Virus record (IMG/VR): IMGVR_UViG_3300013137_002215
Length of the DNA: 62,777 bases
Strand: one strand, 5' to 3'
DNA from: an uncultured virus (IMG/VR IMGVR_UViG_3300013137_002215)
Taxonomy: Duplodnaviria > Heunggongvirae > Uroviricota > Caudoviricetes
In this document: one piece after another, positions 42,092 through 57,582 of the stretch
Layout: every line of letters starts with the position of its first letter
How positions within the stretch are numbered: the first letter of the stretch is position 1
The notes under the pieces: generated by a model
What the model saw: only the letters and a program-made list of their open reading frames with translations
Database searches by the model: none
What the model was told of the DNA's origin: nothing
Translations under genes and position numbers: made by a program

Positions 42092-42130
42092 ATAATTATT
42101 ATACAAAATTTAAGAATTAGAAAACAATAA

Positions 42131-42613: not shown

Positions 42614-42658
42614 GATGGATATTTCTGGAAAAGATTATGAAGTTCCTGTGATAAAATT

Positions 42659-42732
42659 TCAGGGCGGAGGGGATCGAACCCTCGTAACCATGGTCCCAAG
42701 CCATGTGGACAACCAACTGTCTCCACGCCCTG
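42659..42732 (-). tRNA. tRNA-Pro(UGG)
   Basis: cloverleaf; anticodon arm CATGG-CT TGG GA-CCATG; TTCGA T-loop. Confidence 0.9.
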
Positions 42733-42738
42733 TTAAAT

Positions 42739-42816
42739 TGGCACGGCAGAGGGGACTCGAACCCCCAAAGTTCGGGATGAAAACCCGATGAAGTTAGCCA
42801 ATTTTTCTACTGCCGC
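42739..42816 (-). tRNA. tRNA-Glu(UUC)
   Basis: TCGGG-TT TTC AT-CCCGA; encoded CCA. Confidence 0.9.
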
Positions 42817-42829
42817 ATATAAATTATTT

Positions 42830-42905
42830 TGGTAGGCGCATCCAGAATTGAACTGGAAACTAAACCGTATCAGGATTTCGTGATGGACCTTTTCACCATG
42901 CGCCC
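42830..42905 (-). tRNA. tRNA-Ile(GAU)
   Basis: AAATC-CT GAT AC-GGTTT; encoded CCA. Confidence 0.88.
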
Positions 42906-42909
42906 ATAC

Positions 42910-43071
42910 TTAATTTTTCTCTTTTTTCATATTTTTTATAAATAAAACTGCTTCTTTCGCGCAATCTTTTATATTACATCTGCCATCACGAACAAATATA
43001 CCTATACCAATTGCGCCACGATTTCTCAACTTATTCAACTCTTTATTTAACCCTTTCACTACTGTTTTCAT
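42910..43071 (-). CDS. small hypothetical protein within the tRNA cluster (53 aa)
   Basis: SD AGGAG; MKTVVKGLNKEL... Confidence 0.5.
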   Translation of the reverse strand: MKTVVKGLNKELNKLRNRGAIGIGIFVRDGRCNIKDCAKEAVLFIKNMKKEKN

Positions 43072-43133
43072 TTTTCTCCTTTTTCAATTCCCATATCGTA
43101 GTGTTGTACGCTTCAATCTATAAAGCAAAATTT

Positions 43134-43207
43134 TGGGCGGGTGATGGGTATTGAACCCACTTAAACGGCTCCACAGACCGTCGCATTACCTTTATGCTAC
43201 ACTCGCC
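43134..43207 (-). tRNA. tRNA-His(GUG)
   Basis: ACGGT-CT GTG GA-GCCGT; encoded G-1 and C73. Confidence 0.88.
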
Positions 43208-43263
43208 ATTTTTGACTATTTATACACTTTCTTCTCTTTAATTCGCCATATTTGACGAAATAT

Positions 43264-43379
43264 TAGTGGGGTAAATAGGAATCAAACCTACACTCGTTGG
43301 TTGCCTTTTTATTTGCTGAAAGTAACCTTTAAACAGATTCATTTTTATACCCACTGTGCTTCCGTTACACCACCGCCCC
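43264..43379 (-). ncRNA. tRNA-like RNA with a 49-nt anticodon loop
   Basis: acceptor GGGGCGG/TTACCCC, D arm GTGT/GCAC, T arm GTAGG TTTGATT CCTAT; loop 43301-43349. Confidence 0.6.
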
Positions 43380-43402
43380 TATATTTTCAAAGAACGATCA
43401 CT

Positions 43403-43441
43403 AAAAACAAAAAACCCTTCCAGATTATCTCTGAAAGGGTT
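43403..43441 (-). terminator. attenuator terminator of tRNA operon 1
   Basis: AACCCTTTCAGA-GATAA-TCTGGAAGGGTT + TTTTGTTTTT. Confidence 0.85.
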
Positions 43442-43464
43442 AGCGATCCAAATTTTGGGTTAGA

Positions 43465-43533
43465 TTAGATCGTACCCCCTTCCAGATGTTCTTCTGGAAT
43501 CTCAATCATGGGGATATGAATTCTAATCGTCAT
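43465..43533 (-). CDS. leader peptide MTIRIHIPMIEIPEEHLEGGTI
   Basis: SD AAGGA and ATGA overlap with upstream ORF; Ile/His/Pro/Glu-rich; contains antiterminator TCTGGAAGGG. Confidence 0.8.
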   Translation of the reverse strand: MTIRIHIPMIEIPEEHLEGGTI

Positions 43534-43718
43534 ATTGTTTCCTTATTCTCCAAATTATTCTTAATTTCCTTTTTATTTCTTATAAAATAATGTGTTTCTC
43601 TGCATTTTGGCTTACATTTGTGACATTCTTTTCTATTAGAACTATGTGTAGAAAACTCCTTACCACATATCCTGCAATTAAGTCTTACCCTACCTGGAAA
43701 TTTAATCTTTTCTTTCAT
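43530..43718 (-). CDS. small Zn-finger protein
   Basis: CRICG...CHKCKPKC; SD AAAGGA. Confidence 0.6.
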   Translation of the reverse strand: MKEKIKFPGRVRLNCRICGKEFSTHSSNRKECHKCKPKCRETHYFIRNKKEIKNNLENKETI

Positions 43719-43745
43719 AGTTCCTTTCGCATCTTTGTAACACTT

Positions 43746-43774
43746 ATATTATACACACAAAAATCACATGTCAA
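43746..43774 (-). promoter_or_regulatory. sigma70-type promoter of tRNA operon 1
   Basis: TTGACA-17-TAATAT (overlapping TGTATAAT). Confidence 0.7.
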
Positions 43775-43817
43775 TATTTATTTTTTTATGTTTCGGAAGA
43801 CTAAAGAGAACAAAAGA

Positions 43818-44450
43818 CTAACCTAAAAATTGCGTTTTTAAGTCTTCAAACACATTAGGACACTTTTCGCATAGTTGTCTTAACATTTCTTTAGCGATAT
43901 CTCTTATTTCCCATTGAGCATGTTTATCACATCTTACTTTAAATATATTCCTATATTCTCTAAAATTAGCACTCATAACTATTTCGGTATGACAAGCATT
44001 GGGAAGAACAAAACGGGCATCTTCATTTTTCAACCCGAATTTCTTCCATTTATCATACATTCGTTGTATTTTAGTCATATCCTGCCTAAACTCATCTGTT
44101 GCCGCACAATATCCCTCAACATAATCCGACACAATGCTTTTTTCTGATTTTAATATTGCCTCTGGAACAACATAATCAAATTGATCTTCTTTTACGTATC
44201 TCTGGCTTTGCTGAGAATAAGATGCAATGCGATGTCTAACAAGCTGATGAGTTAACGCCCTAGACACCTCACCAATCCTAAAAGTAGCATATCCGTGTTC
44301 TAAAACCGACTCGTGACCGCTTTTAATTAGTGATTTTATTAGAGTTCCAACGACATACCCATCTTTAGAAACACTTTGATAACATGTCCTACCAGCGTTT
44401 TCTATAAGCTCTTCTGCATTAGGCGTAATAGATAGCAATTCAACTTTCAT
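43818..44450 (-). CDS. thyX: FAD-dependent thymidylate synthase
   Basis: GHESVLEH, HQLVRHRIASYSQQSQRY, EDARFVLP, AQWEIR. Confidence 0.95.
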   Translation of the reverse strand: MKVELLSITPNAEELIENAGRTCYQSVSKDGYVVGTLIKSLIKSGHESVLEHGYATFRIGEVSRALTHQLVRHRIASYSQQSQRYVKEDQFDYVVPEAILKSEKSIVSDYVEGYCAATDEFRQDMTKIQRMYDKWKKFGLKNEDARFVLPNACHTEIVMSANFREYRNIFKVRCDKHAQWEIRDIAKEMLRQLCEKCPNVFEDLKTQFLG

Positions 44451-44481
44451 AGTATCTCCTTATATCTCAATTATACAAATT

Positions 44482-44646
44482 TTAATTATCGCTCCACGCC
44501 TTATAATCTTTAGTTGCCTTACTTACATCTACTTTTTCTCCATGTTTATATCTATATTGTTTATGTTTATAGTCATAATCATAACAATGCGTACTAGAAC
44601 AGCCTATTATGCCAATTAAACATAAAATCATAATAATTCTATACAT
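44482..44646 (-). CDS. small putative lipoprotein
   Basis: MYRIIMILCLIGIIGC lipobox-like. Confidence 0.45.
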   Translation of the reverse strand: MYRIIMILCLIGIIGCSSTHCYDYDYKHKQYRYKHGEKVDVSKATKDYKAWSDN

Positions 44647-44660
44647 GTCTTTATAATACA

Positions 44661-44702
44661 AAAAATAAAGGGCTGAAAATTTAATTTCAGCCCTTTATTT
44701 TA
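44661..44702. terminator. intrinsic terminator
   Basis: aaaaataaagggctgaaa...tttcagccctttattttt. Confidence 0.85.
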
Positions 44703-44716
44703 ATCTCTTATGCTAC

Positions 44717-45253
44717 TTATTTTCCCATTTTATACCAAGGACGAGCATCATCAAATACCTTACTACGACTTATTGCTGTTTTTCTAGCTTGTATCATTAT
44801 TGCATTCTTTTCTTCCATGCCTAATCCTGCTTCAGCACCTAATATATACGCATCTACTATTTGAATAGCTACATCCTGTTTTTCTTTCCATTCAGGGTGA
44901 GTAGCAAACAGCATATCTATCCCACCAAGTAATGATAATGCACCAGCTTTACATAATGGACGATATTGCGCCTCTATCTTAGTATCAATAAATATAACCA
45001 AAGCAGGATAGATCGTTTCAGTATATGTAGAACCAGCCTGTACTTCGTCTGCCTTATCCTTAATTATACTTAGTAATAATTTAACACCGGCTATTTCTTC
45101 GGTTGTTGGATTATCCATAGCTATCCAACCCACAGCAGTAAACAATCCTGCATTCTGTGCTACCACTTTAATTTGTTCAGTTTGGCATCCGGTGAATAAT
45201 AACGTCGATAAACATAACACCCCAACTAACACACTACTTGCTAACTGTTTCAT
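44717..45253 (-). CDS. putative lipoprotein
   Basis: signal peptide ending LLFTGC. Confidence 0.65.
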   Translation of the reverse strand: MKQLASSVLVGVLCLSTLLFTGCQTEQIKVVAQNAGLFTAVGWIAMDNPTTEEIAGVKLLLSIIKDKADEVQAGSTYTETIYPALVIFIDTKIEAQYRPLCKAGALSLLGGIDMLFATHPEWKEKQDVAIQIVDAYILGAEAGLGMEEKNAIMIQARKTAISRSKVFDDARPWYKMGK

Positions 45254-45798
45254 TTGTATCCCCTTCCTTTTTTTTCTTGTTTTGTTTTAACCATTTTAAC
45301 CGTAATATTGCGTTCAGTTTTTTTCCTAGAAACCTCTTTTCCTGCCACACATAGACTTACAATACTATTAAATTTCTCTTCTGCCAAGTTAAAAAAGTTG
45401 ATTTGCCTTCCTCTTAAGTTCATTTCCACCAACACATCGTCGCCCTCATTTAAAAACTCATTAATTTGTTTGACCTTATAATCTATATCGTGTTGTGCAA
45501 TATCTGGAGTGAACTTCATTTCTTTTAAATGTCTTTTACCGTGTTTTTCGTTTTCTTTTTGTTTCTTATCCTGTTCATATTTCCATTTGCCATAATTCAT
45601 CATTTTACAAAGTGGCAACTTGTTATTATCGCCTTTATCAATACATACGAGATCTAATCCATTATCATGTGCTTCGTGCATTGCAGTATATAAATCCATA
45701 TCTTCTTTATAACCACCTGACACATCTATAAGTCTTATTTTCCTGCTTAAACGAGTATTATTGGTAATTATAAATGCTGAATTAGAACCGTTATTCAT
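45250..45798 (-). CDS. infC: translation initiation factor IF-3
   Basis: IRLID, GLDLV, PLCKMMNYGKWKYE, LKEMKF.P.IAQHD, FL.EGD.V..RGRQ. Confidence 0.9.
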   Translation of the reverse strand: MNNGSNSAFIITNNTRLSRKIRLIDVSGGYKEDMDLYTAMHEAHDNGLDLVCIDKGDNNKLPLCKMMNYGKWKYEQDKKQKENEKHGKRHLKEMKFTPDIAQHDIDYKVKQINEFLNEGDDVLVEMNLRGRQINFFNLAEEKFNSIVSLCVAGKEVSRKKTERNITVKMVKTKQEKKGRGYK

Positions 45799-46051
45799 TA
45801 TTTTTTATTTCCTTAATTTCTTTTATCATATCCTCCAACCTATCTTCATAAATCTTCATATCACTTATGTTGCTGATTAAATTACTTGTATCTTGACCTG
45901 AAATCCAAAAACCATTCTCAAAAGGAACAAATTCTACACGGTATGGTTTTAGCTTTTTAGGCAGTTCCCATTTTACATCTGTTTTTGCTGGAGAAAAACA
46001 AGAACAACACGACAGAACAAGTAAAACAAAAAATGCTTTTAAAATAGACAT
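45791..46051 (-). CDS. small lipoprotein (possibly spanin-like)
   Basis: hydrophobic N-terminus with SCCSC; coiled C-terminus. Confidence 0.45.
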   Translation of the reverse strand: MSILKAFFVLLVLSCCSCFSPAKTDVKWELPKKLKPYRVEFVPFENGFWISGQDTSNLISNISDMKIYEDRLEDMIKEIKEIKNNE

Positions 46052-46207
46052 ATAGCAATTAATAATTATTGGTATCCATGTATTCTAATCCAATTCGTCT
46101 TGCCACTTTATTTGCTCTTAGTTTTTCTTCATTTAGTTTAGTTTTCTTCATATAGCCAAAAAACCCAAATATATATTGTAAAAATTTCAACAGTGTTTTG
46201 ACGATTC

Positions 46208-46672
46208 TCATTTTTTGTTTTCTTTAATTTCTATTAATTCTATTTGTCGGGGTCTCCATCCTATTAAGTTGGCAGCATGAAAAGAACTTGCGGCATATAA
46301 TTCAGCTATTTGTCCTGTTCTTTTATTTCTAATAATAAACTTTTTATCAAACTTAGAAATAACACTATTATAATTATTCTCTTTAAGATGTTGTAAGTCC
46401 TTGTTAGTTAAAGGTAGATTTTCGGGTCTTTCAGAACTCATTATATTCTTTTCAATAGCAATCGTTTTTGTTTTGTCAGGAGGATTAAAAACAGACGTAC
46501 TTGTTTCCTCACTTACTTCTACATTAGTATTAGAAGTAATAGCAGAATTTGAGACGGTAGAATTAACAGCAGAACTTGAGACATCGTTTTCAACAATATC
46601 ACCAAATTTTATAGAAACATTTGAAGTATTATTATCACTATCACTTATTACCTTTATTTTATCATTTTCCAT
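46208..46672 (-). CDS. hypothetical protein
   Basis: ORF with SD GAGG. Confidence 0.65.
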   Translation of the reverse strand: MENDKIKVISDSDNNTSNVSIKFGDIVENDVSSSAVNSTVSNSAITSNTNVEVSEETSTSVFNPPDKTKTIAIEKNIMSSERPENLPLTNKDLQHLKENNYNSVISKFDKKFIIRNKRTGQIAELYAASSFHAANLIGWRPRQIELIEIKENKK

Positions 46673-46681
46673 AATTATCCC

Positions 46682-47617
46682 TCAAAAATACCTTGATAAA
46701 TATAAACTACTAAATTCCGTGTCATATTCTTGCGCCTTAAACTCATCTGATTTATAATTATACATATAAATAATCTCGTTTCCACAAAAATAAACACATG
46801 CGCCTAAAGACAAACTAAATATAACATTATTTTTCTCTACAGACGGACTTTCTTTAAAAGTATTGCCATCTAAAAATATATTGCGCATCATGCATTTCCC
46901 ATCAACACTTGTAAAAACATAACTATAAAACTTCTTTTTTTCTCTGGTTGTTGGTTCCATATGATACGTCCCAAAATCATCGGGCAGTCTATATCCGATT
47001 CTAAAAGTAGAACCGCAATTCAAATAATCATATATGTTCCCAACACACGCACCATAATTAGGAATAATATCATAGTAATCTTTTTTTATCTTATATTTCT
47101 TTTGGTAAATTAAATCTGCTCCAAGCTCGTCACGTATTTGATATTTCCAACCATTAGGATGTTGTGCGCCAAATTGTTTATGCATCCATATTTGCGTTTC
47201 ATCAGAATAAGAAGATTTACCTGTTGTTCCGATATCCAACTCCCAAAAATCCAATTCTTTACTATCATAAGCTATTAAGGAATATCCTCCATATAGCCAA
47301 CCACCATAAGGACGATCTTCAGGTAGAAATTCCGTCGCTTTTAAATCTGAAGGGGTATACATATATTGTGCAACCGAATAGCCACTTTGACTATTTTTGT
47401 TTGGATATAAGTTTTCAAACCATTTATATGATCCCTCTTTAACATATAAAATTCTGGTGCCATGAGTATAATACCTGTCATGATAATATAAAATATCGTT
47501 TTCAAAAGAAACATTTACCATGTTTGCCGAACCAGCAGCAGTCAAAAACATCAATAAAAACAAAATATAAAAAACTATCATAATTATTCTATTCATCACA
47601 ATCGCGCTATCTATCAT
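46682..47617 (-). CDS. lpxR: lipid A deacylase LpxR family (DUF2219) beta-barrel
   Basis: signal peptide, FEND..DRYYTHG, QYMYTPSD, DRPYGGWLY, GWKYQI, NIFLDGN, terminal F. Confidence 0.82.
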   Translation of the reverse strand: MIDSAIVMNRIIMIVFYILFLLMFLTAAGSANMVNVSFENDILYYHDRYYTHGTRILYVKEGSYKWFENLYPNKNSQSGYSVAQYMYTPSDLKATEFLPEDRPYGGWLYGGYSLIAYDSKELDFWELDIGTTGKSSYSDETQIWMHKQFGAQHPNGWKYQIRDELGADLIYQKKYKIKKDYYDIIPNYGACVGNIYDYLNCGSTFRIGYRLPDDFGTYHMEPTTREKKKFYSYVFTSVDGKCMMRNIFLDGNTFKESPSVEKNNVIFSLSLGACVYFCGNEIIYMYNYKSDEFKAQEYDTEFSSLYLSRYF

Positions 47618-47618
47618 A

Positions 47619-48251
47619 TTAATATACCGTTTTAATATTTTTAACCTTAATTCTGTCTTCTATAAAACCCATTTGCCTTAATTTCTTTTTTTGCCTCTCA
47701 TCCCTGCATATTATTTGTTTAGCAGTTTTCAAATTCAATGACGAAACAACCACCTGATCATTTTCTACAAACACATATTTCTTTAAGAAAATATTGATAT
47801 CCCTATTACTATTTATCCAACAATCTACCTCTTTATCTTTAATCTTATAGGAAATGCTGTCAAGATACATTTCTTCCATAAATTTTGCAATAGACACATT
47901 AATTTCTTTAACAGTATTTCCTTCCATACAACATAAAATTAATTCCCATAAATTAAAATCTACAGGAAATCCAATTACGTTTTCAAATCCGAATAATATT
48001 TTATCTTTATTTGTTCTAGCATCTTCTCTGGTACGCAAAATATATTTTCGTTTCTTTAAATTAATACCATTTTTAAAACCTGTAATTTCGGATCTACTTC
48101 GTGAAAGCCATATTTGAGGTGAGAAACCACAATAACTACCTAGCCAATTATACGCCTCATAAAATATATCGTCTTTACCTTCTTCGGGATCTTCATACGG
48201 AAATACCTTATCATACACTACATATTTCAATGGGCGACAATGATAGTACAT
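47619..48251 (-). CDS. hypothetical protein
   Basis: ORF packed in operon. Confidence 0.65.
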   Translation of the reverse strand: MYYHCRPLKYVVYDKVFPYEDPEEGKDDIFYEAYNWLGSYCGFSPQIWLSRSRSEITGFKNGINLKKRKYILRTREDARTNKDKILFGFENVIGFPVDFNLWELILCCMEGNTVKEINVSIAKFMEEMYLDSISYKIKDKEVDCWINSNRDINIFLKKYVFVENDQVVVSSLNLKTAKQIICRDERQKKKLRQMGFIEDRIKVKNIKTVY

Positions 48252-48252
48252 A

Positions 48253-49062: not shown

Positions 49063-49083
49063 ATAATTTTAACAGTATCAAGT

Positions 49084-49515: not shown

Positions 49516-49516
49516 T

Positions 49517-49852: not shown

Positions 49853-49853
49853 G

Positions 49854-50279: not shown

Positions 50280-50344
50280 AATTATCTCCTCCCTCAACCC
50301 AAAAATAGACACTATTATATTTCACTAAAATAATCCAAAGTCCT

Positions 50345-51266: not shown

Positions 51267-51298
51267 GACTAGTTATTCTTAAAATAATACAAAAAATC

Positions 51299-51991: not shown

Positions 51992-52341
51992 ATCAATATT
52001 ATTCTTTTATTATCTTTTTCTGCCTTTTTTATCGTATCTTCTGTTCCACCAGTTCTATCGTTTGCTACTAAGGCGATTATAACATCTGCATCTTGGGCAA
52101 TATAGGTATTTCTAGCAAATCCAGCCCTTTTACCTAATTTATTCCATTGGGCATAATATATTTTAATAGGTACTTGATATTTCTTGGCTATTATTTCTGC
52201 AAACTTATCGCCACCAGCATAACAGCCACCAGAAACCACCTCGTCGCCATCTTCATATATCTCTAAGAACTTATTTTCACACAATTTATAATCTTCTTCA
52301 CTATTGCGCCTTCTAGAACCAACTATTCCAATTGTTTTCAT
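51988..52341 (-). CDS. SLOG superfamily (YspA/DUF2493-like) protein
   Basis: IGIVGSR, VSGGC..GGD, AGFARN, GGTEDT. Confidence 0.8.
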   Translation of the reverse strand: MKTIGIVGSRRRNSEEDYKLCENKFLEIYEDGDEVVSGGCYAGGDKFAEIIAKKYQVPIKIYYAQWNKLGKRAGFARNTYIAQDADVIIALVANDRTGGTEDTIKKAEKDNKRIILI

Positions 52342-52374
52342 AACTTGCCTTCTAACACTTTTATTATATTCATT

Positions 52375-53733
52375 AAACGTGAGCAGAAACCCCGACATCT
52401 TTAGTGTCGGGGAGGTAAGCGAATTACTTAACCCGCTTCCTTCCACTTCTCCTTTGCTATTTATTATACCTAAAATATTTTAAGATTCAAGCAGGATTTT
52501 TCTTAAAAATATAGAATAACATAATTATGAACATATTAACATATAATATTAAATTAGAGTTTCAGAATCAAAAAGACAAAGATTCTCTGATTGATTTACT
52601 ATTAGAACATCAAAAAGTATGGAACTATATGTCAGAATATGTTTTTAAATCCAAAAAGGTAGATAAAAAGTTAATTCACGATAAAAACTATAAGAAATGC
52701 AGAAAACTGTTCCCAAATTGTCCTTCCCAAGTAGTTATCAGAGCAAAAGATTCGGTCTACGCTACCTATAGAACAATTCAGTCTAACAAACATAAATTAG
52801 AAGAATCCGCTAAACAAGAAAATCTATCAATAAGATTAGATAAGAGAATTTATACTTTTCTTCCAGATAATAAAATTAAACTAACAACCACTGGGAAAAG
52901 AATAACCTGCTCCTATACTCCTTATGACAAATTCAGAGATATGTTCTCTAAATATTCTGTTTGTGACCCATTACTTTTTGTTAGAAATAATGAAGTTTGG
53001 CTTTCGGTATCATTTGAAGTTTCAACCCCTACCCTTATAGAAGGTAGTTGTATCGGAGTGGATTTAGGCATAAAAAGATTAGCAACTACCTCTGAGGGAT
53101 TAACAATTACAGATAAGAAGTTCCTTAAAGAAAAAAGACAAATAAGACATCTAAAGAGTATATTAAAATCAAAAAGCAAAACTACTTTTTCCCGTTCTGC
53201 CCAAAGAAAACTAAAAAAACTAAAAAGAAAAGAGCATAACAAAAACAAGAACCAATCACATCTTATTGCTAACAAAATATTAGAAACCAAATCTAATGTT
53301 ATTGTTATGGAAGATTTGACTAAAATAAAGTCAGAAAATAAGGGAAAGAGATTTAATAATAGACAATCTCAAGTTCCCTATTTTGAGTTAAGAAAAATAC
53401 TAACCTACAAGGCACCATTATTAGGCAAAATAGTGGTAACGGTTGACCCTGCCTATACTTCTAAGAACGATTATAGAGGCATAGAAAAAGGCAAAAGACA
53501 GGGATGTAGGTATTACACAAGCGATAACAATGTTTTTGATGCTGATTGGAATGCGGCTATAAACATTGCTAATCGTTACGCCATGAGAAAGAAAGTTAAG
53601 GGCGTAGAACTCCCTGTTTCGTTTAATATACCTATTGATGGTAGATTAAACCTAATAGGCAAGCCATATCAACTGGCTAATTGTGAGATAAGGTCTTGCA
53701 AACCCAATGATCTTCAGTCATTAGGTAGTTGAT
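52375..53733 (+). mobile_element. IS200/IS605-type tnpB-only element
   Basis: left hairpin CCCCGACA-TCTTTAG-TGTCGGGG (52390-52412); right hairpin ACCCAATGA..TCATTAGGT followed by AGTTGAT; left boundary approximate. Confidence 0.8.
52527..53732 (+). CDS. tnpB: TnpB/Cas12f-like nuclease lacking the C-terminal Zn finger
   Basis: GVDLG, VMEDL, DPAYTS, DADWNAAINIA; no CxxC pairs. Confidence 0.88.
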   Translation: MNILTYNIKLEFQNQKDKDSLIDLLLEHQKVWNYMSEYVFKSKKVDKKLIHDKNYKKCRKLFPNCPSQVVIRAKDSVYATYRTIQSNKHKLEESAKQENLSIRLDKRIYTFLPDNKIKLTTTGKRITCSYTPYDKFRDMFSKYSVCDPLLFVRNNEVWLSVSFEVSTPTLIEGSCIGVDLGIKRLATTSEGLTITDKKFLKEKRQIRHLKSILKSKSKTTFSRSAQRKLKKLKRKEHNKNKNQSHLIANKILETKSNVIVMEDLTKIKSENKGKRFNNRQSQVPYFELRKILTYKAPLLGKIVVTVDPAYTSKNDYRGIEKGKRQGCRYYTSDNNVFDADWNAAINIANRYAMRKKVKGVELPVSFNIPIDGRLNLIGKPYQLANCEIRSCKPNDLQSLGS

Positions 53734-54255
53734 AACTCTATTATTGTCCAAAAACCCTTTCTTATCTACAATATAACTTCTAATATCTATAAATTTAAAA
53801 CCATACTTGTTACATAAATCAAAAAGACACTTGTTCATGATGTTATTATAATCCAATAGCTCATAATCGCTTCCATTAACAGGACACTCATACTGTTTTA
53901 GTTTTTCTATATATAAAGGCGGAGGAATTACATTATAAATAAATATATTCTTATAATTTAATTGATTAATAGCATCAATGTATTTATCGCACAAACCAAA
54001 TATAATTTCAAGTTTATTTTTGCCATTTTTAACATATGTATTAATATGATTTCTAACATCTATTTCACCAAAACAAAATAAGAAGTAATCTCGTTTGTTT
54101 TTAATAGTATTTATTTTATTTTTGTCTAAAAGAGAGAATATGCCATCTCTACCAACCCTGTGCACTGTAACGGGACCCAAATGATTAATTTTGCACTTAT
54201 TAATAGATAAAAATATAGATGTGTGACTGTCTCCAAATACATGTATATTTTTCAT
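53677..54255 (-). CDS. SGNH/GDSL-like protein, 3' end replaced by IS sequence
   Basis: VFGDSH, FGEIDVR; C-terminus runs into the tnpB right end. Confidence 0.65.
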   Translation of the reverse strand: MKNIHVFGDSHTSIFLSINKCKINHLGPVTVHRVGRDGIFSLLDKNKINTIKNKRDYFLFCFGEIDVRNHINTYVKNGKNKLEIIFGLCDKYIDAINQLNYKNIFIYNVIPPPLYIEKLKQYECPVNGSDYELLDYNNIMNKCLFDLCNKYGFKFIDIRSYIVDKKGFLDNNRVINYLMTEDHWVCKTLSHN

Positions 54256-54292
54256 GAAAGGAATTATTAATTATCTATTAGAATTATACAAC

Positions 54293-54478
54293 ATGAAGAT
54301 ATATAAGATAGCTAATGTGCCCAAATTGAAAAAAAGACCAAAAAGCCATGTTGGAAAAATTGAACCCGCACAAGTTGGCAAAGGATGGAAAAAACATAAG
54401 AAATTAGATACTAGATTATTACCGGTTCATAGATATACTTTAGAAGAAGCAGAATTTCCTATTGTAATAAAAAGTTAA
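54293..54478 (+). CDS. small basic protein with MKIYKIAN N-terminus
   Basis: ATG 8 nt after AGGA-N18-GAAT. Confidence 0.55.
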   Translation: MKIYKIANVPKLKKRPKSHVGKIEPAQVGKGWKKHKKLDTRLLPVHRYTLEEAEFPIVIKS

Positions 54479-54654
54479 TTATTGTACAAGTCTTTCCCAC
54501 AATTTTCTATAATAACATTTTTAATTGTTTCTGTTAATTGATCTTCAGGAACAGAATCAACATCTATCTCGTCGCAAAAATTAGAAGTTATAACAACATC
54601 ATACTCTTCTTTTACTTTTTCTGCTATTTTTCTTGCTAATATTTCTGCTTTCAT
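54475..54654 (-). CDS. small hypothetical protein
   Basis: SD AGGAG; MKAEILARKI... Confidence 0.55.
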   Translation of the reverse strand: MKAEILARKIAEKVKEEYDVVITSNFCDEIDVDSVPEDQLTETIKNVIIENCGKDLYNN

Positions 54655-54670
54655 GTTTCTCCTTTTAAAT

Positions 54671-54877
54671 CTACCATATTTCTACATCTGTTAAATCTAA
54701 TTTTTCTTTCGTGACACCGTGAATAACCTCAACAATACATCCTAAACCGGTTGGAGTGAAAGAATAAGTAAGTTGACCGCCGATTGCTCCATAATAATCA
54801 GTACCAGTTTTCTTATTCTGTTTTTTATTCCACTCTTTAATTTTTTTCATGTCTTCATCTGATATGTTGAATTGCAT
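54671..54877 (-). CDS. small phage protein
   Basis: SD AGGAG; GAIGGQLTYSFTPTGLG..LDLTD. Confidence 0.7.
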   Translation of the reverse strand: MQFNISDEDMKKIKEWNKKQNKKTGTDYYGAIGGQLTYSFTPTGLGCIVEVIHGVTKEKLDLTDVEIW

Positions 54878-54895
54878 ATATATCTCCTGTTTAAA

Positions 54896-54993
54896 GGCTG
54901 GAGAGACAGGCTTCGCTCCTGCACACACACCCGATTAGAGGTGTCATGATCGGCTTAACAGGCCGACCCCTTGCTAGTTAGGGCAACTCTCCA
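54896..54993 (-). tRNA. tRNA-Asn(GUU), atypical (27-nt variable region, T-loop AGCGAAG)
   Basis: TGGAGAG/CTCTCCA, G73; TCGGC-CT GTT AA-GCCGA. Confidence 0.75.
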
Positions 54994-55000
54994 ATAAATT

Positions 55001-55071
55001 TTGTCTCGTCGGGACTTGAACCCAAACTAGGACCTCCAAAGGGTCCGGTGCTGCCATTACACTACGAGACA
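55001..55071 (-). tRNA. tRNA-Gln(UUG)
   Basis: GGACC-CT TTG GA-GGTCC; U1-A72. Confidence 0.9.
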
Positions 55072-55538
55072 TTATTTTTCTTTTTTAATATCTCCCTTAA
55101 TCTCATCAATCTCCCACAAAATTCGCTTCTTGTCAATATTGTTTCTTTAGAATTTGATCTACCAATATTGTGTGTTAAAACCGCATCTCCACTTGCTAAT
55201 AAAGCCCTCCTAAAAGAGTCAGATTGTTCCATTAATGCCATATAAGCCCTATCTAACAATATTTGGTATTCATCGCTCTGCCTATCAATTTCTTTATCTT
55301 CCCAATATAATGTTTGTGTTTTCCACCATTTCTTTTCTTTACCTGATTTTTTAGCACTATATCCAACAAGTTTGCATATCTCTTTTTGCATTTCTGGATT
55401 TTTAAATTTTAAACTCTGCAAAAATCCCTCCATACTATTAATAGGAATTTCATCAAAAACAAAAGGGTGTGGTGCAAAATTTGATAATGCACTTGACGGA
55501 TAACCATGTTTTGATCCTATATCCATTTTTACCTCCAT
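55062..55538 (-). CDS. T4 Gp30.3-like NADAR family protein
   Basis: YPSSALSNFAPHPF, SMEGFLQSLKF, QTLYW, LTHNIG, TILT..EF. Confidence 0.8.
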   Translation of the reverse strand: MEVKMDIGSKHGYPSSALSNFAPHPFVFDEIPINSMEGFLQSLKFKNPEMQKEICKLVGYSAKKSGKEKKWWKTQTLYWEDKEIDRQSDEYQILLDRAYMALMEQSDSFRRALLASGDAVLTHNIGRSNSKETILTRSEFCGRLMRLREILKKKNNVS

Positions 55539-55553
55539 ACTTATTAATAATAT

Positions 55554-55597
55554 AAATAAAAAGCCCCCTTCAAGATATTTTATCCTAAAGAGGGCAA
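55554..55597 (-). terminator. attenuator terminator of tRNA operon 2
   Basis: GCCCTCTTTAGGATA...TATCTTGAAGGGGGC + TTTTTATTT. Confidence 0.8.
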
Positions 55598-55613
55598 GAT
55601 AGTAGAATAACTA

Positions 55614-55667
55614 TCAGTGCCCTTTCAGGCATTGATTATTTTGGTTATTCTGTTGATTCATTTTCAT
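55614..55667 (-). CDS. leader peptide MKMNQQNNQNNQCLKGH
   Basis: nine consecutive Asn/Gln codons; antiterminator CCTGAAAGGGCA. Confidence 0.85.
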   Translation of the reverse strand: MKMNQQNNQNNQCLKGH

Positions 55668-55673
55668 ACTATT

Positions 55674-55701
55674 AATATACACAAATTTTATTGTTTGTCA
55701 A
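55674..55701 (-). promoter_or_regulatory. sigma70-type promoter of tRNA operon 2
   Basis: TTGACA-16-TATATT with TG; ATG 6 nt downstream. Confidence 0.7.
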
Positions 55702-55711
55702 CTTATTATTG

Positions 55712-56515
55712 CTAATTTTTATTTTTTCCTTTATTTCTCTTAAACTCATCGTGTCTTTTTTCTATCCATTCCAATAATTCTTTATCCTTAATATTTATTT
55801 CATTTAACATATCATATAAAGTTGATTTGTAAGGATAATCACACATTATTTTCATGGCGTCTATTTTTTTAGAAGACTCGATAAAATAAATACAAAAAAG
55901 AACCCAATTACGAACCATCTTATAATTCTTAGTGCCTTCTGCAACACGAATTTCAACAGTCTTTCTCTTTTTGTTTTTAATATAATCAACAATACTGAAA
56001 CTTATAGCACTATGATGATCTTCTGTTGAATTTAGTGCATCTTTAAAGAAACTTGCGGTATTCTTTTTACTTCCTTTGCTTTTTATGCTTCTTTCACAAT
56101 AAAAACAATTTCTTCTACGTAATGGAAATAAAGAGAATATCACAGGTTCATATTTAAGCCATAATGCCAATACTTTTTCTTTATCTATACCGGCAATATC
56201 TAAATGAACATGCAAAGAATCCTTATCTGTTATTTTTATATCATTTCTATCTATTTCTTTAATAACGTCGCATATTTTATCCATTTGTTTTAAAGTAGAA
56301 ATTGGCGTACATAATTCGCTTTCTGTTGTAGCATCGGTTTTTAAGTTCCATTTGATATTATTAATTGATTGATAGGCTTCTTCTTTACAATATAAACTAT
56401 TATTACCAAAGTATTTATGTATTATTTTAGATATAATTGGCTTAATTTGATCATATCTCGTAGAAAACTCAAATTCACAACCAAACTTCCTAGAAAAGAA
56501 TATTTTGGGGAACAT
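55712..56515 (-). CDS. putative amidoligase (COOH-NH2 ligase type 2)
   Basis: FGCEFEF, ELCTP, SLHVHL, TVEIR. Confidence 0.8.
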   Translation of the reverse strand: MFPKIFFSRKFGCEFEFSTRYDQIKPIISKIIHKYFGNNSLYCKEEAYQSINNIKWNLKTDATTESELCTPISTLKQMDKICDVIKEIDRNDIKITDKDSLHVHLDIAGIDKEKVLALWLKYEPVIFSLFPLRRRNCFYCERSIKSKGSKKNTASFFKDALNSTEDHHSAISFSIVDYIKNKKRKTVEIRVAEGTKNYKMVRNWVLFCIYFIESSKKIDAMKIMCDYPYKSTLYDMLNEINIKDKELLEWIEKRHDEFKRNKGKNKN

Positions 56516-56677
56516 ACATATTAATTCAAAGAAATTAAAAAATATCCTGTGGTTATAAAGAATATCAACAAAAACAATAATCTAATAAGAATTATGTTCT
56601 TTTGTTTTAATATATTTTTATTAATCTTCATTGAATTTATATATATTTCAAAAAACTGTCAATTATTCCTTGATAAG

Positions 56678-56751
56678 TGGCAGATAAGGGACTTGAACCC
56701 ATACTTTCACGGATTATGATTCCGTAGCACTAGCCATTATGCTAATCTGCC
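56678..56751 (-). tRNA. tRNA-Met(CAU) elongator (or Ile2)
   Basis: ACGGA-AT CAT AA-TCCGT. Confidence 0.85.
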
Positions 56752-56756
56752 TTAAT

Positions 56757-56827
56757 CAGGAGCACTCCGACTTGAACGGAGACAAAAAATTTTGGAGATT
56801 TTTATGCTACCATTACATCATGCCCCT
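56757..56827 (-). tRNA. tRNA-Trp(CCA)
   Basis: AAAAT-CT CCA AA-ATTTT; G73. Confidence 0.88.
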
Positions 56828-56831
56828 AAGT

Positions 56832-56926
56832 TGGTGCGGGTAACAGGACTCGAACCTGCATTAGCCATAAGGCATCAGTTTCCACTTATCCTTATCTACT
56901 TAGAAGGTAGATGGAACTATACCCGC
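56832..56926 (-). tRNA. tRNA-Arg(UCU)-like RNA with rearranged D region
   Basis: GCGGGTA/TACCCGC-ACCA, canonical T arm, TCTAC-CT TCT AA-GTAGA nested within a GTTCCA/TGGAAAC stem. Confidence 0.65.
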
Positions 56927-56931
56927 AAAAA

Positions 56932-57007
56932 TGGTGCCCCTAGAAAGATTTCAACTTTCAACTATTTCTTAGGACGAAATTATTATGTGCAATTTCACTA
57001 TAGGGGC
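56932..57007 (-). tRNA. tRNA-Arg(CCU)
   Basis: ATTTC-GT CCT AA-GAAAT; encoded CCA. Confidence 0.85.
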
Positions 57008-57010
57008 AAT

Positions 57011-57086
57011 TGGCGGAGCCAGCGAAAGGTCGAATTCGCTATTTATCCGTGACAGGGATATGTTTTTCCACTTAAACTATGGCTCC
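57011..57086 (-). tRNA. tRNA-Asp(GUC)
   Basis: TATCC-CT GTC AC-GGATA; GCCA end. Confidence 0.88.
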
Positions 57087-57092
57087 AAAAAC

Positions 57093-57170
57093 TGGTAGCG
57101 GGTAAAAGGTATCGCGCCTTTTGTAGAGTAGCTTATGAGACTACCGCTGGTCTCTCCAGTCTAACCCGCA
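57093..57170 (-). tRNA. initiator-like tRNA-Met(CAU)
   Basis: U1-U72 mismatch; GTAGT-CT CAT AA-GCTAC; encoded CCA. Confidence 0.8.
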
Positions 57171-57178
57171 AAAATATC

Positions 57179-57253
57179 TGGTATTCTCTGTAGGATTTCA
57201 ACCTACAACTTCAAGTTCGTAGCCTGATATGATATGCATTTCACCAAGAGAAT
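57179..57253 (-). tRNA. tRNA-Arg(ACG)
   Basis: TCAGG-CT ACG AA-CTTGA; encoded CCA. Confidence 0.87.
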
Positions 57254-57261
57254 AAAAATCT

Positions 57262-57360
57262 TGCCGTAATGATCGCTTCGGTGCAATTTTAGAGATTTGC
57301 AAAACTCTATCTTTATTTCCGATACTGATTCCGGCTCATTATTCGAGCGATCTATCAGAA
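57262..57360 (-). ncRNA. candidate structured RNA
   Basis: GATCGCT/AGCGATC closing stem enclosing CCGG/TCGG and TAGAG/CTCTA hairpins. Confidence 0.4.
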
Positions 57361-57387
57361 ATCACTAATATTAATTTATCAAAGAAC

Positions 57388-57424
57388 AAAAAAAAGCCCG
57401 TATCACTTGTCTGATACGGGCTTT
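57388..57424 (-). terminator. attenuator terminator of tRNA operon 3
   Basis: AAAGCCCGTATCA-GACAAG-TGATACGGGCTTT + T tract. Confidence 0.9.
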
Positions 57425-57444
57425 CCTTTTCTATGTCCCATTAG

Positions 57445-57516
57445 CTAGACAAAATGGGACAAAAGAATGCCCGTATAAGGCATCCTATCCCAACGATCTT
57501 GTCTTAGCGATATCAT
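57445..57516 (-). CDS. leader peptide MISLRQDRWDRMPYTGILLSHFV
   Basis: SD GAGGTG; AGA CAA GAT CGT TGG GAT AGG ATG; antiterminator ATACGGGC. Confidence 0.82.
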   Translation of the reverse strand: MISLRQDRWDRMPYTGILLSHFV

Positions 57517-57545
57517 TCTTAATACACCTCTATATCTTTGTTCTA

Positions 57546-57574
57546 AGATTATATAACTTTATCCTGCCTGTCAA
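57546..57574 (-). promoter_or_regulatory. sigma70-type promoter of tRNA operon 3
   Basis: TTGACA-17-TAATCT (or 15-TATAAT). Confidence 0.7.
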
Positions 57575-57582
57575 CATCTTTT

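What the first reader, a model, noticed from the sequence alone, without database searches (positions are those of the whole stretch)
42659..57574. Codon-matched leader-peptide attenuators control three phage tRNA operons
Seen: all three tRNA clusters share one architecture: sigma70 promoter, short leader ORF whose control codons match that cluster's own anticodons, an antiterminator segment inside the leader that copies the terminator's 3' arm, a hairpin over the leader stop codon, an intrinsic terminator, then the tRNAs. The three leaders are unrelated in sequence, so the match recurs independently. Known: this is the logic of trp/his-type ribosome-mediated attenuation, which normally controls amino-acid biosynthesis genes. 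Inference: the phage senses shortage or destruction of specific tRNAs (starvation or host anticodon nucleases) by ribosome stalling and then transcribes the replacements. I know of no description of this for phage tRNA arrays, but could not search the literature.
Basis: partly seen in the sequence, partly recalled or inferred. Interest (0 to 1): 0.97.

Follow-up and report, generated by a model that had tools for sequence, protein, structure and literature searches.

The report
Codon-matched attenuators before phage tRNA genes
In this lake-water phage-like genome each of three tRNA gene blocks sits behind a tiny translated test gene, spelled in the codons those same tRNAs read and wired to a switchable transcription stop. 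The virus probably makes a tRNA set only when ribosomes read its codons slowly.

Summary
All 11 ARAGORN tRNAs lie on the minus strand in three blocks. Each block is preceded by:
- a near-consensus promoter;
- a 17-23 codon ORF;
- an intrinsic terminator (-17 to -20 kcal/mol);
- a leader segment that copies the terminator's 3' arm.

Leader against block, cognate codons: 14/21, 9/16 and 6/22 on the diagonal, 0-3 off it. In a six-frame scan of the window the densest cognate windows fall in the matching leader. Block 3 has one tie elsewhere. Leader 3 uses three Arg codons (AGA, CGT, AGG) beside anticodons UCU (weak tRNA-like call), ACG and CCU.

The antiterminator pairing beats 1000 shuffles (0, 1 and 7 reach it). 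Two control terminators do not. Folds with a ribosome footprint give the antiterminator when the A site is on the control codons.

Best reading: ribosome-mediated attenuation that gives each tRNA operon feedback control by decoding speed. The trigger is inferred, not shown.

I found no relatives and no RNA data for this genome. My sample of 223 other phage tRNA blocks held one more case (L065). Its counterpart is in the cultured cyanophage S-PM2.

The scan has noted this class before on other DNA. Ten literature searches found no published description.

The parts
57548..57574 (-). Promoter of operon 3 (TTGACA, 15-nt spacer, TATAAT)
   Evidence: 12/12 consensus match. It is one of only three such sites in the window.
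57445..57516 (-). Leader ORF 3, MISLRQDRWDRMPYTGILLSHFV. Control run is GAT CGT TGG GAT AGG ATG, with AGA two codons before it.
   Evidence: GAGGTG lies 9 nt before the ATG. The 6/6 cognate run is one of two such windows in six frames.
57464..57486 (-). Leader 3, segments 1 and 2. The hairpin AGGAUGCCU/GGGCAUUCU has a 3' half that overlaps AUACGGGC, the copy of the terminator's 3' arm.
   Evidence: Folds. Duplex with the terminator 5' arm is -15.1 kcal/mol, reached by 7/1000 shuffles.
57434..57461 (-). Leader 3 hairpin with the stop codon UAG in its loop
57388..57429 (-). Intrinsic terminator 3 (18 pairs, run of 8 T)
   Evidence: Core stem -18.4 kcal/mol.
56677..57253 (-). tRNA block 3: Arg(ACG), weak tRNA(CAT) at 57169-57097, Asp(GTC), Arg(CCT), tRNA-like with UCU anticodon loop at 56927-56835, Trp(CCA), Met(CAT)
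55674..55701 (-). Promoter of operon 2 (TTGACA, 16-nt spacer, TATATT)
   Evidence: 11/12 match
55614..55667 (-). Leader ORF 2, MKMNQQNNQNNQCLKGH, with nine consecutive Asn/Gln codons
   Evidence: It is the only 9/9 window in six frames. The ATG lies 7 nt after the -10 hexamer and there is no Shine-Dalgarno sequence.
55618..55630 (-). Leader 2 antiterminator segment GCCUGAAAGGGCA, which overlaps the hairpin that holds the stop codon
   Evidence: Duplex -16.7 kcal/mol, reached by 1/1000 shuffles. Folds.
55563..55595 (-). Intrinsic terminator 2 (15 pairs)
   Evidence: Stem -20.5 kcal/mol.
55062..55538 (-). gp30.3-family gene inside operon 2. Its last 10 nt overlap tRNA-Gln.
   Evidence: PF08010, E 2.6e-54. 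phrog_652. Sequence.
54896..55071 (-). tRNA block 2: Gln(TTG) and a 98-nt Asn(GTT) with a long variable arm
43748..43774 (-). Promoter of operon 1 (TTGACA, 15-nt spacer, TATAAT)
   Evidence: 12/12 match
43530..43718 (-). 62-aa Cys-rich ORF whose stop overlaps the leader 1 start (ATGA)
   Evidence: No Pfam or PHROG match.
43465..43533 (-). Leader ORF 1, MTIRIHIPMIEIPEEHLEGGTI, with 14 of 21 codons for Ile, His, Pro or Glu
   Evidence: The top four 15-codon windows in six frames all lie here. GGAG and AAGGAA precede the ATG.
43476..43499 (-). Leader 1, segments 1 (UUCCAGA) and 2 (AUCUGGAAGGGG, the copy of the terminator's 3' arm)
   Evidence: Duplex -16.3 kcal/mol, reached by 0/1000 shuffles. 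Folds.
43413..43441 (-). Intrinsic terminator 1 (12 pairs)
   Evidence: Stem -17.1 kcal/mol.
43267..43379 (-). tRNA-like element with an insert of about 50 nt in the anticodon arm, first feature after terminator 1
   Evidence: Rfam RF00005, 29.9 bits against a gathering score of 29
42659..43206 (-). tRNA block 1: His(GTG), a 53-aa ORF, Ile(GAT), Glu(TTC), Pro(TGG)

Best explanation
These are three independent leader-peptide (ribosome-mediated) transcription attenuators, each gating one tRNA operon.

Proposed mechanism:
1. A strong sigma70-type promoter starts a highly structured leader RNA.
2. A ribosome translates a 17-23 codon ORF whose control codons are read by the tRNA species encoded just downstream.
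3. If decoding is fast, the ribosome runs to the stop codon. That codon sits in a hairpin between segments 2 and 3. Segment 2 is then covered (leaders 1 and 2) or re-pairs with segment 1 (leader 3). The terminator forms and transcription stops before the tRNAs.
4. If those codons are decoded slowly, the ribosome stalls over segment 1. Segment 2 pairs with the terminator's 5' arm as that arm emerges, and RNA polymerase reads into the tRNA genes.
5. The new tRNAs speed up leader translation and shut the operon again. Each block is therefore a homeostat for its own decoding capacity.

Shown here: the anatomy, the codon/anticodon match, and the alternative pairings with their statistics.

Inferred: promoter use, translation of the leaders, kinetic competition during transcription, and the physiological signal.
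For: Concordance.
- Leader against block, cognate codons excluding the start: L1 14/0/1 of 21, L2 1/9/1 of 16, L3 3/1/6 of 22.
- Background frequencies of the three codon sets in 61 long frames are 0.144, 0.094 and 0.110. Binomial tails are 7e-8, 3e-6 and 0.028.
- In about 62,700 windows per strand over three frames, the four best block-1 windows (12/15) all lie in L1. The only 9/9 block-2 window is L2. One of two 6/6 block-3 windows is L3.
- At codon level, L3 uses AGA, CGT and AGG, and block 3 carries anticodons UCU (tRNA-like, sub-threshold), ACG and CCU.

Structure.
- Terminator stems are -17.1, -20.5 and -18.4 kcal/mol.
- Whole leaders fold with z -5.1, -6.4 and -8.2, and 0 of 200 shuffles fold as well.
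- The duplex between leader and terminator 5' arm is -16.3, -16.7 and -15.1 kcal/mol, reached by 0, 1 and 7 of 1000 dinucleotide shuffles. Two other minus-strand terminators give 485 and 231 of 1000.
- With the RNA cut after the terminator's 5' arm and a 29-nt ribosome footprint, the antiterminator is the MFE for A-site codons 3-13 (L1), 2-9 (L2) and 2-11 (L3). It is lost at the stop codon in L1 and L2.
- In L1 the switch shows even at equilibrium: P(terminator) is 0.23-0.34 at codons 5-8.

Wiring.
- Promoters score 12/12, 11/12 and 12/12.
- No promoter-like site of 9/12 or better lies between any terminator and its tRNAs.

Calibration.
- Of 223 other phage tRNA blocks scored the same way, 101 of them with 3 or more tRNAs, one (L065) has a short ORF plus terminator with a cognate run of 6 or more. 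The window has 3 of 3.

Class-level support.
- L065 has a 33-codon leader with all 20 amino acids, an antiterminator reached by 7/1000 shuffles, then 22 tRNAs.
- Cultured cyanophage S-PM2 has a 34-codon leader, a -20.0 kcal/mol terminator and an antiterminator reached by 2/1000 shuffles, then 13 tRNAs within the 3-kb stretch fetched.
Against: - No expression data. All four sequencing runs that hold the DNA are DNA runs.
- No relatives were found, so there is no conservation or covariation test for these three leaders.
- Copies in other lake runs are identical where laid.
- Leader 2 has no Shine-Dalgarno sequence. Its translation rests on a leaderless geometry inferred from the promoter.
- With the full terminator present, equilibrium folding keeps P(terminator) at 0.94 or above for L2 and L3 at every ribosome position. 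Switching there needs kinetic competition, which I did not simulate.
- For L2 the truncated RNA forms the antiterminator even without a ribosome.
- For L3 the model lets segments 2 and 3 pair across a ribosome parked at the stop codon.
- My duplex test for segment 1:2 pairing was not significant for L2 (279/1000) or L3 (423/1000), and marginal for L1 (30/1000). The test excluded the hairpin halves concerned.
- Over its whole ORF, L3 is only weakly enriched (6/22, P 0.028). One other 6/6 window exists at 18277.
- CCC in L1 is cognate only if the UGG anticodon reads all four Pro codons.
- The architecture is rare: 1 of 223 sampled blocks.
Confidence: 0.78

Rival explanations
1. The hardware is the same, but the signal it evolved to sense is damage to host tRNAs by anticodon nucleases or other tRNA-depleting defences. 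On this reading the operons are inducible counter-defence, not general supply homeostasis.
For: - The tRNA sets (His, Asn, Asp, Arg, Gln, Glu) overlap classes that I recall as targets of known tRNA nucleases. This is recalled, not tested.
- A LigD-type 3'-phosphoesterase gene follows tRNA-Pro directly (PF13298, E 1.4e-25).
- Two of the tRNA-like genes have unusual long-variable-arm bodies.
- Papers on phage tRNAs evading tRNA-targeting defences appeared in the search listings (PMC11555353 and PMC12445682; listing and abstract starts only).
Against: - Nothing in the sequence separates this from plain supply sensing.
- No RNA ligase was found among the 84 window ORFs scanned against Pfam or PHROGs.
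- The host is unknown.
Confidence: 0.12
2. The leader ORFs are not translated. The promoter-to-terminator units are small RNAs or constitutive insulators. The codon runs act by direct RNA pairing with tRNA anticodons (T-box-like) or have no function.
For: - Promoter plus a transcript of about 110-150 nt plus a terminator is also the shape of an sRNA gene.
- Leader 2 lacks a Shine-Dalgarno sequence.
- Equilibrium folds favour the terminator.
Against: - No T-box or other Rfam family matches. The best hits are sub-threshold: Thr_leader at 28.5 bits against a gathering score of 55, and sRNA models with E above 0.2.
- The cognate triplets are in one reading frame, bounded by a start and a stop codon. 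L1 and L3 have a Shine-Dalgarno sequence.
- No alternative promoter exists for the tRNAs.
Confidence: 0.06
3. The match between short ORFs and neighbouring tRNAs is chance.
For: - Low-GC DNA is rich in Asn, Ile and Glu codons.
- One 6/6 block-3 window occurs elsewhere in the window.
Against: - The best windows in six frames coincide with the correct upstream region three times. My arithmetic, taking about 600 nt of 125,554 strand positions for each, gives a joint chance near 2e-7.
- Among 223 control blocks, the only short ORF plus terminator with a cognate run of 6 or more (L065) is itself a likely true case.
Confidence: 0.01

Closest known systems
Leader-peptide transcription attenuators of enterobacterial amino-acid operons (trp, his, leu, thr, ilvGMEDA, pheA)
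   Same: Promoter-proximal short ORF with regulatory codons. Segments 1:2, 2:3 and 3:4. An intrinsic terminator. Stalling selects the antiterminator. Sensing of several amino acids at once, as in thr (Thr and Ile) and ilv (Ile, Leu, Val). These features are established knowledge that I recall. Rfam Thr_leader gives a sub-threshold hit on leader 3.
   Different: The regulated genes are tRNAs, not biosynthetic enzymes, so the product is the molecule the sensor reads. Up to five to seven tRNA species are tested by one leader. The match is at codon level (three Arg codons). There is no sequence homology to any Rfam leader family. The setting is a phage.
pheST (pheM leader) attenuator of E. coli phenylalanyl-tRNA synthetase
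   Same: Attenuation applied to a component of the translation apparatus rather than to biosynthesis (recalled).
   Different: It controls a synthetase, uses one amino acid, and is a cellular gene.
T-box riboswitches
   Same: They sense tRNA status and switch a terminator and antiterminator upstream of translation-related genes.
   Different: A T-box binds uncharged tRNA directly through one specifier codon and a conserved T-box sequence, with no ribosome. No T-box match was found here. These leaders are ORFs with many codons.
Other tRNA-array leaders: this scan's earlier notes, my L065, and cyanophage S-PM2
   Same: Promoter, short ORF written in the amino acids of the downstream tRNAs, antiterminator copy, terminator, tRNA array.
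   Different: Those found here (L065, S-PM2) use one long leader with 15-20 different amino acids before one large array. This window has three small, sharply specific leaders, each tuned to 2-7 tRNAs. There is no sequence similarity to them.

Membership tests
Leader-peptide (ribosome-mediated) transcription attenuator | Short ORF close to the promoter with a usable translation start | tested here: met
   ORFs of 22, 17 and 23 codons lie 25-240 nt from near-consensus promoters. L1 and L3 have Shine-Dalgarno sequences. L2 has none, and its ATG lies 7 nt after the -10 hexamer, which fits a leaderless start.
Leader-peptide (ribosome-mediated) transcription attenuator | Regulatory codons cognate to what the operon supplies | tested here: met
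   14/21, 9/16 and 6/22 on the diagonal against 0-3 off it. The matching leaders hold the six-frame maxima.
Leader-peptide (ribosome-mediated) transcription attenuator | Intrinsic terminator between the leader and the regulated genes, with no other promoter behind it | tested here: met
Leader-peptide (ribosome-mediated) transcription attenuator | Antiterminator that is mutually exclusive with the terminator | tested here: met
   -16.3, -16.7 and -15.1 kcal/mol, reached by 0, 1 and 7 of 1000 shuffles. Controls give 485 and 231 of 1000.
Leader-peptide (ribosome-mediated) transcription attenuator | Segment 1 under the control codons sequesters segment 2, so that a stalled ribosome frees it | tested here: inconclusive
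   Footprint folds agree for L1 and L3, and in part for L2. The separate duplex-shuffle test gave 30, 279 and 423 of 1000.
Leader-peptide (ribosome-mediated) transcription attenuator | Read-through depends on leader translation and on the supply of charged tRNA | not testable with these tools
   No RNA run holds the sequence.
Leader-peptide (ribosome-mediated) transcription attenuator | Regulated genes are amino-acid biosynthesis or synthetase genes (all classical members) | tested here: not met
   The downstream genes are tRNAs, plus one gp30.3-family gene. This is the respect in which it is a new variant.
T-box riboswitch | Stem I specifier loop and the conserved T-box sequence (Rfam T-box model) | tested here: not met
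   No T-box hit at E of 1 or below in 41000-59000
Rfam Thr_leader (RF00506) | Score at or above the gathering threshold of 55 bits | tested here: not met
   28.5 bits, E 0.088, at 57387-57513

The most novel reading that the evidence does not exclude
The three leaders are codon-resolved damage sensors in a tRNA counter-defence island. When a host nuclease or shut-off removes particular tRNAs, only the matching operon opens. What it delivers includes replacement tRNAs with atypical bodies: long-variable-arm tRNAs with GUU and UCU anticodons, and a tRNA-like element with an insert in its anticodon arm. Such bodies might escape recognition by the nuclease. A LigD-type 3'-phosphoesterase beside the array would heal cleaved RNA ends.
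Probability: 0.15. Interest if true: 0.95.

Novelty: new variant of a known kind. Interest (0 to 1): 0.85.

Why it matters
How phages regulate their tRNA genes is little understood, and why they carry particular sets is debated. Codon usage, host tRNA decay and escape from tRNA-cleaving defences have all been proposed.

A leader that reads the very codons its operon serves would be direct feedback control of decoding capacity. Attenuation is a classical mechanism. Here it would be applied to the adaptor molecules themselves.

This window is an unusually clean case. One genome carries three unrelated leaders, each specific for its own 2-7 tRNAs, down to three different Arg codons.

The same architecture occurs in the cultured cyanophage S-PM2. 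The idea can therefore be tested at the bench with an existing phage-host pair.

Such leaders could also serve as readable predictors of which codons limit a phage in its host, and as compact codon-specific sensors for synthetic biology.

Tried and rejected
Relatives of this genome
- Megablast of 15.4 kb and blastn of block 3 against 50,697 phage records found no relative. There were six 80-nt tRNA-Arg hits only.
- tblastn with the 800-aa helicase gave 30% identity or less.
- The search for related loci in IMG/VR used five neighbouring or large proteins. Only gp30.3 and thymidylate-synthase homologues came back: 8 loci, none with a tRNA nearby, and no leader in front of the 4 gp30.3 genes.
- The metagenome scan with the amidoligase gave 10 loci at 27-39% identity, none with a tRNA.
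- No whole genome is held for the window.

Sequencing runs
- No RNA holder is listed. Four lake-water DNA runs hold the sequence.
- The pieces listed over leaders 2 and 3 and the block-1 spacer are identical to the window, and no leader position is among the differences shown, so they give no variation to analyse.

Other large phages
- In four large phage records reached through those loci, I inspected five regions upstream of tRNA blocks by eye, without formal scoring. I saw no codon-matched ORF plus terminator.

A recalled precedent, checked
- I recalled that the E. coli tRNA-Phe genes might have an attenuator-like leader. At pheV in K-12 the promoter abuts the tRNA, with no leader ORF or terminator.
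- I located pheU but did not read its sequence.
- The 1985 paper I had in mind could not be opened, nor could the S-PM2 genome paper.

Tests that did not work as intended
- Equilibrium folding as a test of switching is uninformative for L2 and L3.
- The segment 1:2 duplex-shuffle test was not significant.
- blastn of the S-PM2 leader against all phage records found only S-PM2 itself.

Full report
**What is there**

ARAGORN finds 11 tRNA genes, all on the minus strand, in three blocks:
- Block 1: His, Ile, Glu, Pro (43206-42659).
- Block 2: Gln, Asn (55071-54896).
- Block 3: Arg-ACG, Asp, Arg-CCT, Trp, Met (57253-56677).

Three further tRNA-like genes are weaker calls:
- 43379-43267: a tRNA fold with an insert of about 50 nt in the anticodon arm (29.9 bits).
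- 56927-56835: anticodon loop CUUCUAA, that is UCU, with a long variable arm. It scores 25.2 bits on the tRNA-Sec model, which is sub-threshold.
- 57169-57097: a CAT-anticodon tRNA that ARAGORN reports only at a lowered threshold. Its minimum-energy fold is a cloverleaf.

**Genome context**

- The window is 30% G+C, and almost every gene is on one strand.
- It encodes a T4 gp30.3-family protein, a Dda/exonuclease V-like helicase, thymidylate synthase, two TnpB-like transposases, an HNH endonuclease, many glycosyl- and sulfotransferases, an LpxR homologue and a bacterial-type IF3.
- No capsid or terminase gene lies in this window. 'Phage' is therefore the likely but unproven identity.
- The DNA is held by four lake-water metagenome runs.

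**Anatomy of the three units (minus strand)**

Unit 3
- Promoter: TTGACA-15-TATAAT at 57574-57548.
- GAGGTG lies 9 nt before the ATG.
- Leader ORF 57516-57445: ATG ATA TCG CTA AGA CAA GAT CGT TGG GAT AGG ATG CCT TAT ACG GGC ATT CTT TTG TCC CAT TTT GTC TAG.
- Terminator 57429-57388, then 135 nt, then tRNA-Arg.

Unit 2
- Promoter: TTGACA-16-TATATT at 55701-55674.
- The ATG at 55667 lies 7 nt after the -10 hexamer and has no Shine-Dalgarno sequence.
- Leader: ATG AAA ATG AAT CAA CAG AAT AAC CAA AAT AAT CAA TGC CTG AAA GGG CAC TGA.
- Terminator 55595-55563.
- A gp30.3-family gene follows, and its last 10 nt overlap tRNA-Gln. tRNA-Asn comes next.

Unit 1
- Promoter: TTGACA-15-TATAAT at 43774-43748.
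- A 62-aa Cys-rich ORF follows. Its stop overlaps the leader start (ATGA).
- Leader 43533-43465: ATG ACG ATT AGA ATT CAT ATC CCC ATG ATT GAG ATT CCA GAA GAA CAT CTG GAA GGG GGT ACG ATC TAA.
- Terminator 43441-43413, then the tRNA-like element, tRNA-His, a 53-aa ORF, and tRNAs Ile, Glu and Pro.

Promoters and independence
- No promoter-like site of 9/12 or better lies between any terminator and its tRNAs.
- Only three 12/12 promoter matches exist in the whole window, and two of them are these. From base composition I estimate about 0.3 expected (my arithmetic).
- The bulk promoter scan of the region is not above its shuffles (111 against 104 ± 10.5). Only the quality and placement of these sites count.
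- The three leader regions share no significant similarity (best E 0.067).

**Is the codon match more than chance?**

Cognate codons, start codon excluded:

| Leader | Block 1 | Block 2 | Block 3 | Codons |
|---|---|---|---|---|
| L1 | 14 | 0 | 1 | 21 |
| L2 | 1 | 9 | 1 | 16 |
| L3 | 3 | 1 | 6 | 22 |

- Set frequencies in 61 long reading frames of the window are 0.144, 0.094 and 0.110. The binomial tails are 7e-8, 3e-6 and 0.028.
- L3 is weak as a whole ORF. Its six cognate codons are consecutive and together cover all five ARAGORN tRNAs of the block.
- Scanning every stop-free window in all six frames:
  - The four 12/15 windows for block 1 all lie in L1. The next best score elsewhere is at most 11.
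  - The single 9/9 window for block 2 is L2.
  - Two 6/6 windows exist for block 3: L3, and one inside a gene at 18277.
- The best windows thus fall three times within about 600 nt upstream of the right block, on the right strand. I estimate the joint chance at about 2e-7 (my arithmetic).
- At codon level, L3 uses AGA, CGT and AGG, and the block carries UCU (the weak tRNA-like gene), ACG and CCU.
- Counting CCC in L1 as cognate assumes four-way reading by the UGG anticodon. Without it the count is 13.

**Structure**

- The leaders are far more structured than shuffles: z -5.1, -6.4 and -8.2, with 0 of 200 shuffles folding as well.
- Terminator stems are -17.1, -20.5 and -18.4 kcal/mol.
- In each leader a segment repeats the terminator's 3' arm and can pair with the 5' arm:
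  - L1: AUCUGGAAGGGG, -16.3 kcal/mol.
  - L2: GCCUGAAAGGGCA, -16.7 kcal/mol.
  - L3: CCUUAUACGGGCA, -15.1 kcal/mol.
- These energies are reached by 0, 1 and 7 of 1000 dinucleotide shuffles of the leader. Two other minus-strand terminators (52412 and 44701) give 485 and 231 of 1000.
- I folded the RNA as it exists before the 3' arm is made, blocking 29 nt for a ribosome:
  - The antiterminator is the minimum-energy structure when the A site is on codons 3-13 (L1), 2-9 (L2) or 2-11 (L3). These are the stretches that hold most of the control codons.
  - It is lost once the ribosome moves on to the stop codon in L1 and L2.
  - Without a ribosome, L1 and L3 fold segment 2 into an upstream hairpin.
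- A hairpin includes or spans each stop codon and sits between segments 2 and 3.

**Results that weaken the model**

- With the complete terminator present, equilibrium folding keeps the terminator at P 0.94 or above for L2 and L3 whatever the ribosome position. Only L1 switches, to 0.23-0.34. The switch must therefore be kinetic, as I recall it is for trp. I did not simulate that.
- L2 forms its antiterminator even with no ribosome.
- In L3 the model allows segments 2 and 3 to pair across a ribosome at the stop codon.
- My separate shuffle test for segment 1:2 pairing was not significant: 30, 279 and 423 of 1000. The way I cut the sequence removed part of the hairpins concerned.
- L2 has no Shine-Dalgarno sequence. 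By comparison, 28 of 68 long ORFs have an SD-like 4-mer, against 17% of random positions.

**Related sequences**

- I found no relative of this genome in the phage records, IMG/VR or the metagenome contigs.
- Homologues of the gp30.3 gene in four other phage contigs have no leader and no tRNAs nearby.
- Copies in other lake runs are identical where laid.
- The three leaders therefore cannot be tested for conservation or covariation, and no RNA run holds them.

**How common is the architecture?**

- I drew two arbitrary samples of phage tRNA loci from IMG/VR, using 15- and 14-nt T-arm patterns (80 loci each).
- Every tRNA block with at least 250 nt upstream was scored. The first sample gave 95 blocks in 48 loci, the second gave 128. 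Together 101 blocks had 3 or more tRNAs.
- Scored on amino acids alone, the window's L1 and L2 rank first and second of 98. The next two are Leu-rich ORFs with no terminator flagged after them in the scoring.
- When a terminator is required after the ORF, the only non-window case with a cognate run of 6 or more is L065. The window supplies 3 of 3.
- L065 carries:
  - a promoter;
  - a 33-codon leader that uses all 20 amino acids, with 18 different residues in 21 (a property of 37 of 760,969 windows, 5 of them in this leader);
  - an antiterminator reached by 7 of 1000 shuffles;
  - a -19.6 kcal/mol terminator;
  - 22 tRNAs.
- A blastn hit from L065 led to the cultured cyanophage S-PM2. There an unannotated stretch before the tRNA array holds:
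  - the same promoter motif;
  - a 34-codon leader (MSNISKQIEIIMESDCRYWHIAQSLLLANKDKRM);
  - a -20.0 kcal/mol terminator;
  - an antiterminator of -16.0 kcal/mol, reached by 2 of 1000 shuffles.
- The two loci align at 80% mean column identity. The promoter, antiterminator segment and terminator are conserved, and the 5' half of the leader has diverged.
- The class therefore exists elsewhere but is rare. These samples are small, and my terminator finder accepts only perfect stems.

**Earlier notes of this scan**

A word search returned eight notes, seven of which describe leader-plus-terminator units before tRNA genes in other phages and in CPR bacteria. A look-up with the L065 leader sequence returned one more, in a cyanophage. 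These are unchecked AI notes. They agree with my reading, but I do not count them as evidence.

**Known systems**

- The logic is that of the trp, his, thr and ilv leader-peptide attenuators. The multi-amino-acid thr and ilv leaders are the nearest in design, and pheST is the nearest in target (all recalled).
- It is not a T-box. No Rfam match was found, and the best leader-family hit is Thr_leader at 28.5 bits against a threshold of 55.
- The defining difference is the regulated product. tRNA genes make the loop a direct feedback on the molecule that is sensed.

**Literature**

- Ten full-text searches returned nothing describing attenuation of tRNA genes in phages or cells. I saw listings and abstract starts only.
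- I read passages of two papers, PMC3082878 and PMC12503941. Both were irrelevant.
- Subscription journals and the 1980s literature are largely outside that library, so absence from print is not proven.
- A recalled possible precedent at the E. coli tRNA-Phe genes is not borne out at pheV, where the promoter abuts the tRNA.

**Verdict**

- The physiological trigger is open. It could be general supply-and-demand balance, amino-acid starvation or host tRNA nucleases.
- This is a new variant of a known regulatory kind. The window is a particularly clean three-fold example, and cyanophage S-PM2 offers a cultured system in which to test the class.

Noticed in passing
window 54896-54993 (-) and 56835-56927 (-): Two tRNA(-like) genes combine long variable arms (class II bodies) with anticodons GUU (Asn, discriminator G) and UCU (Arg, encoded ACCA end). 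This is unusual, because I recall long variable arms as typical of Ser, Leu and Tyr tRNAs. Their charging identity is unclear.
   Followed up: partly
window 43267-43379 (-); locus L043 (part of the record with handle G002): A tRNA-like element with an insert of about 50 nt in the anticodon arm is the first feature after terminator 1. Three tRNA hits of 113-121 nt occur at the head of the tRNA array of an unrelated 245-kb phage record. The two whose sequence I read carry inserts in the anticodon arm, and one of them shares a TTCAGCAA motif with the window's element.
   Followed up: partly
window 45250-45798 (-): A bacterial-type translation initiation factor IF3 gene lies between the tRNA blocks (Pfam IF3_N and IF3_C; phrog_9787). 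With the tRNAs it forms a translation-related island.
   Followed up: no
window 42131-42613 (-): A LigD-type 3'-phosphoesterase domain protein lies 46 nt after tRNA-Pro (PF13298, E 1.4e-25). It could heal RNA ends, but no RNA ligase was seen among the ORFs scanned.
   Followed up: no
window 55667-55701 (-): The leader 2 ATG lies 7 nt after the -10 hexamer and has no Shine-Dalgarno sequence. The leader may be translated from a leaderless mRNA.
   Followed up: partly
window 43530-43718 (-): A 62-aa ORF with CxxC pairs shares the operon 1 promoter and overlaps the leader 1 start by ATGA. This suggests translational coupling into the leader.
   Followed up: no
window 39471-40727 (-) and 52527-53732 (+): There are two TnpB-like transposase genes (phrog_506). 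Over 52610-53515 the lake runs also hold a diverged copy at higher depth, which suggests a mobile element with several copies or hosts.
   Followed up: partly
L065 367-522; L290 (S-PM2, NC_006820.1) 1279-1441: Leader-peptide attenuator architecture stands before the tRNA arrays of an IMG/VR contig and of the cultured cyanophage S-PM2. In S-PM2 the stretch carries only an antisense hypothetical CDS (S-PM2p162).
   Followed up: yes
L065 584-640; L290 1501-1557: A 57-nt element between the terminator and the first tRNA is 93% identical between L065 and S-PM2. That is far more conserved than the leader ORF. Its function is unknown.
   Followed up: no
window 46682-47617 (-): A full-length homologue of the outer-membrane lipid A deacylase LpxR (PF09982, E 3e-78). 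It hints at a Gram-negative host.
   Followed up: no
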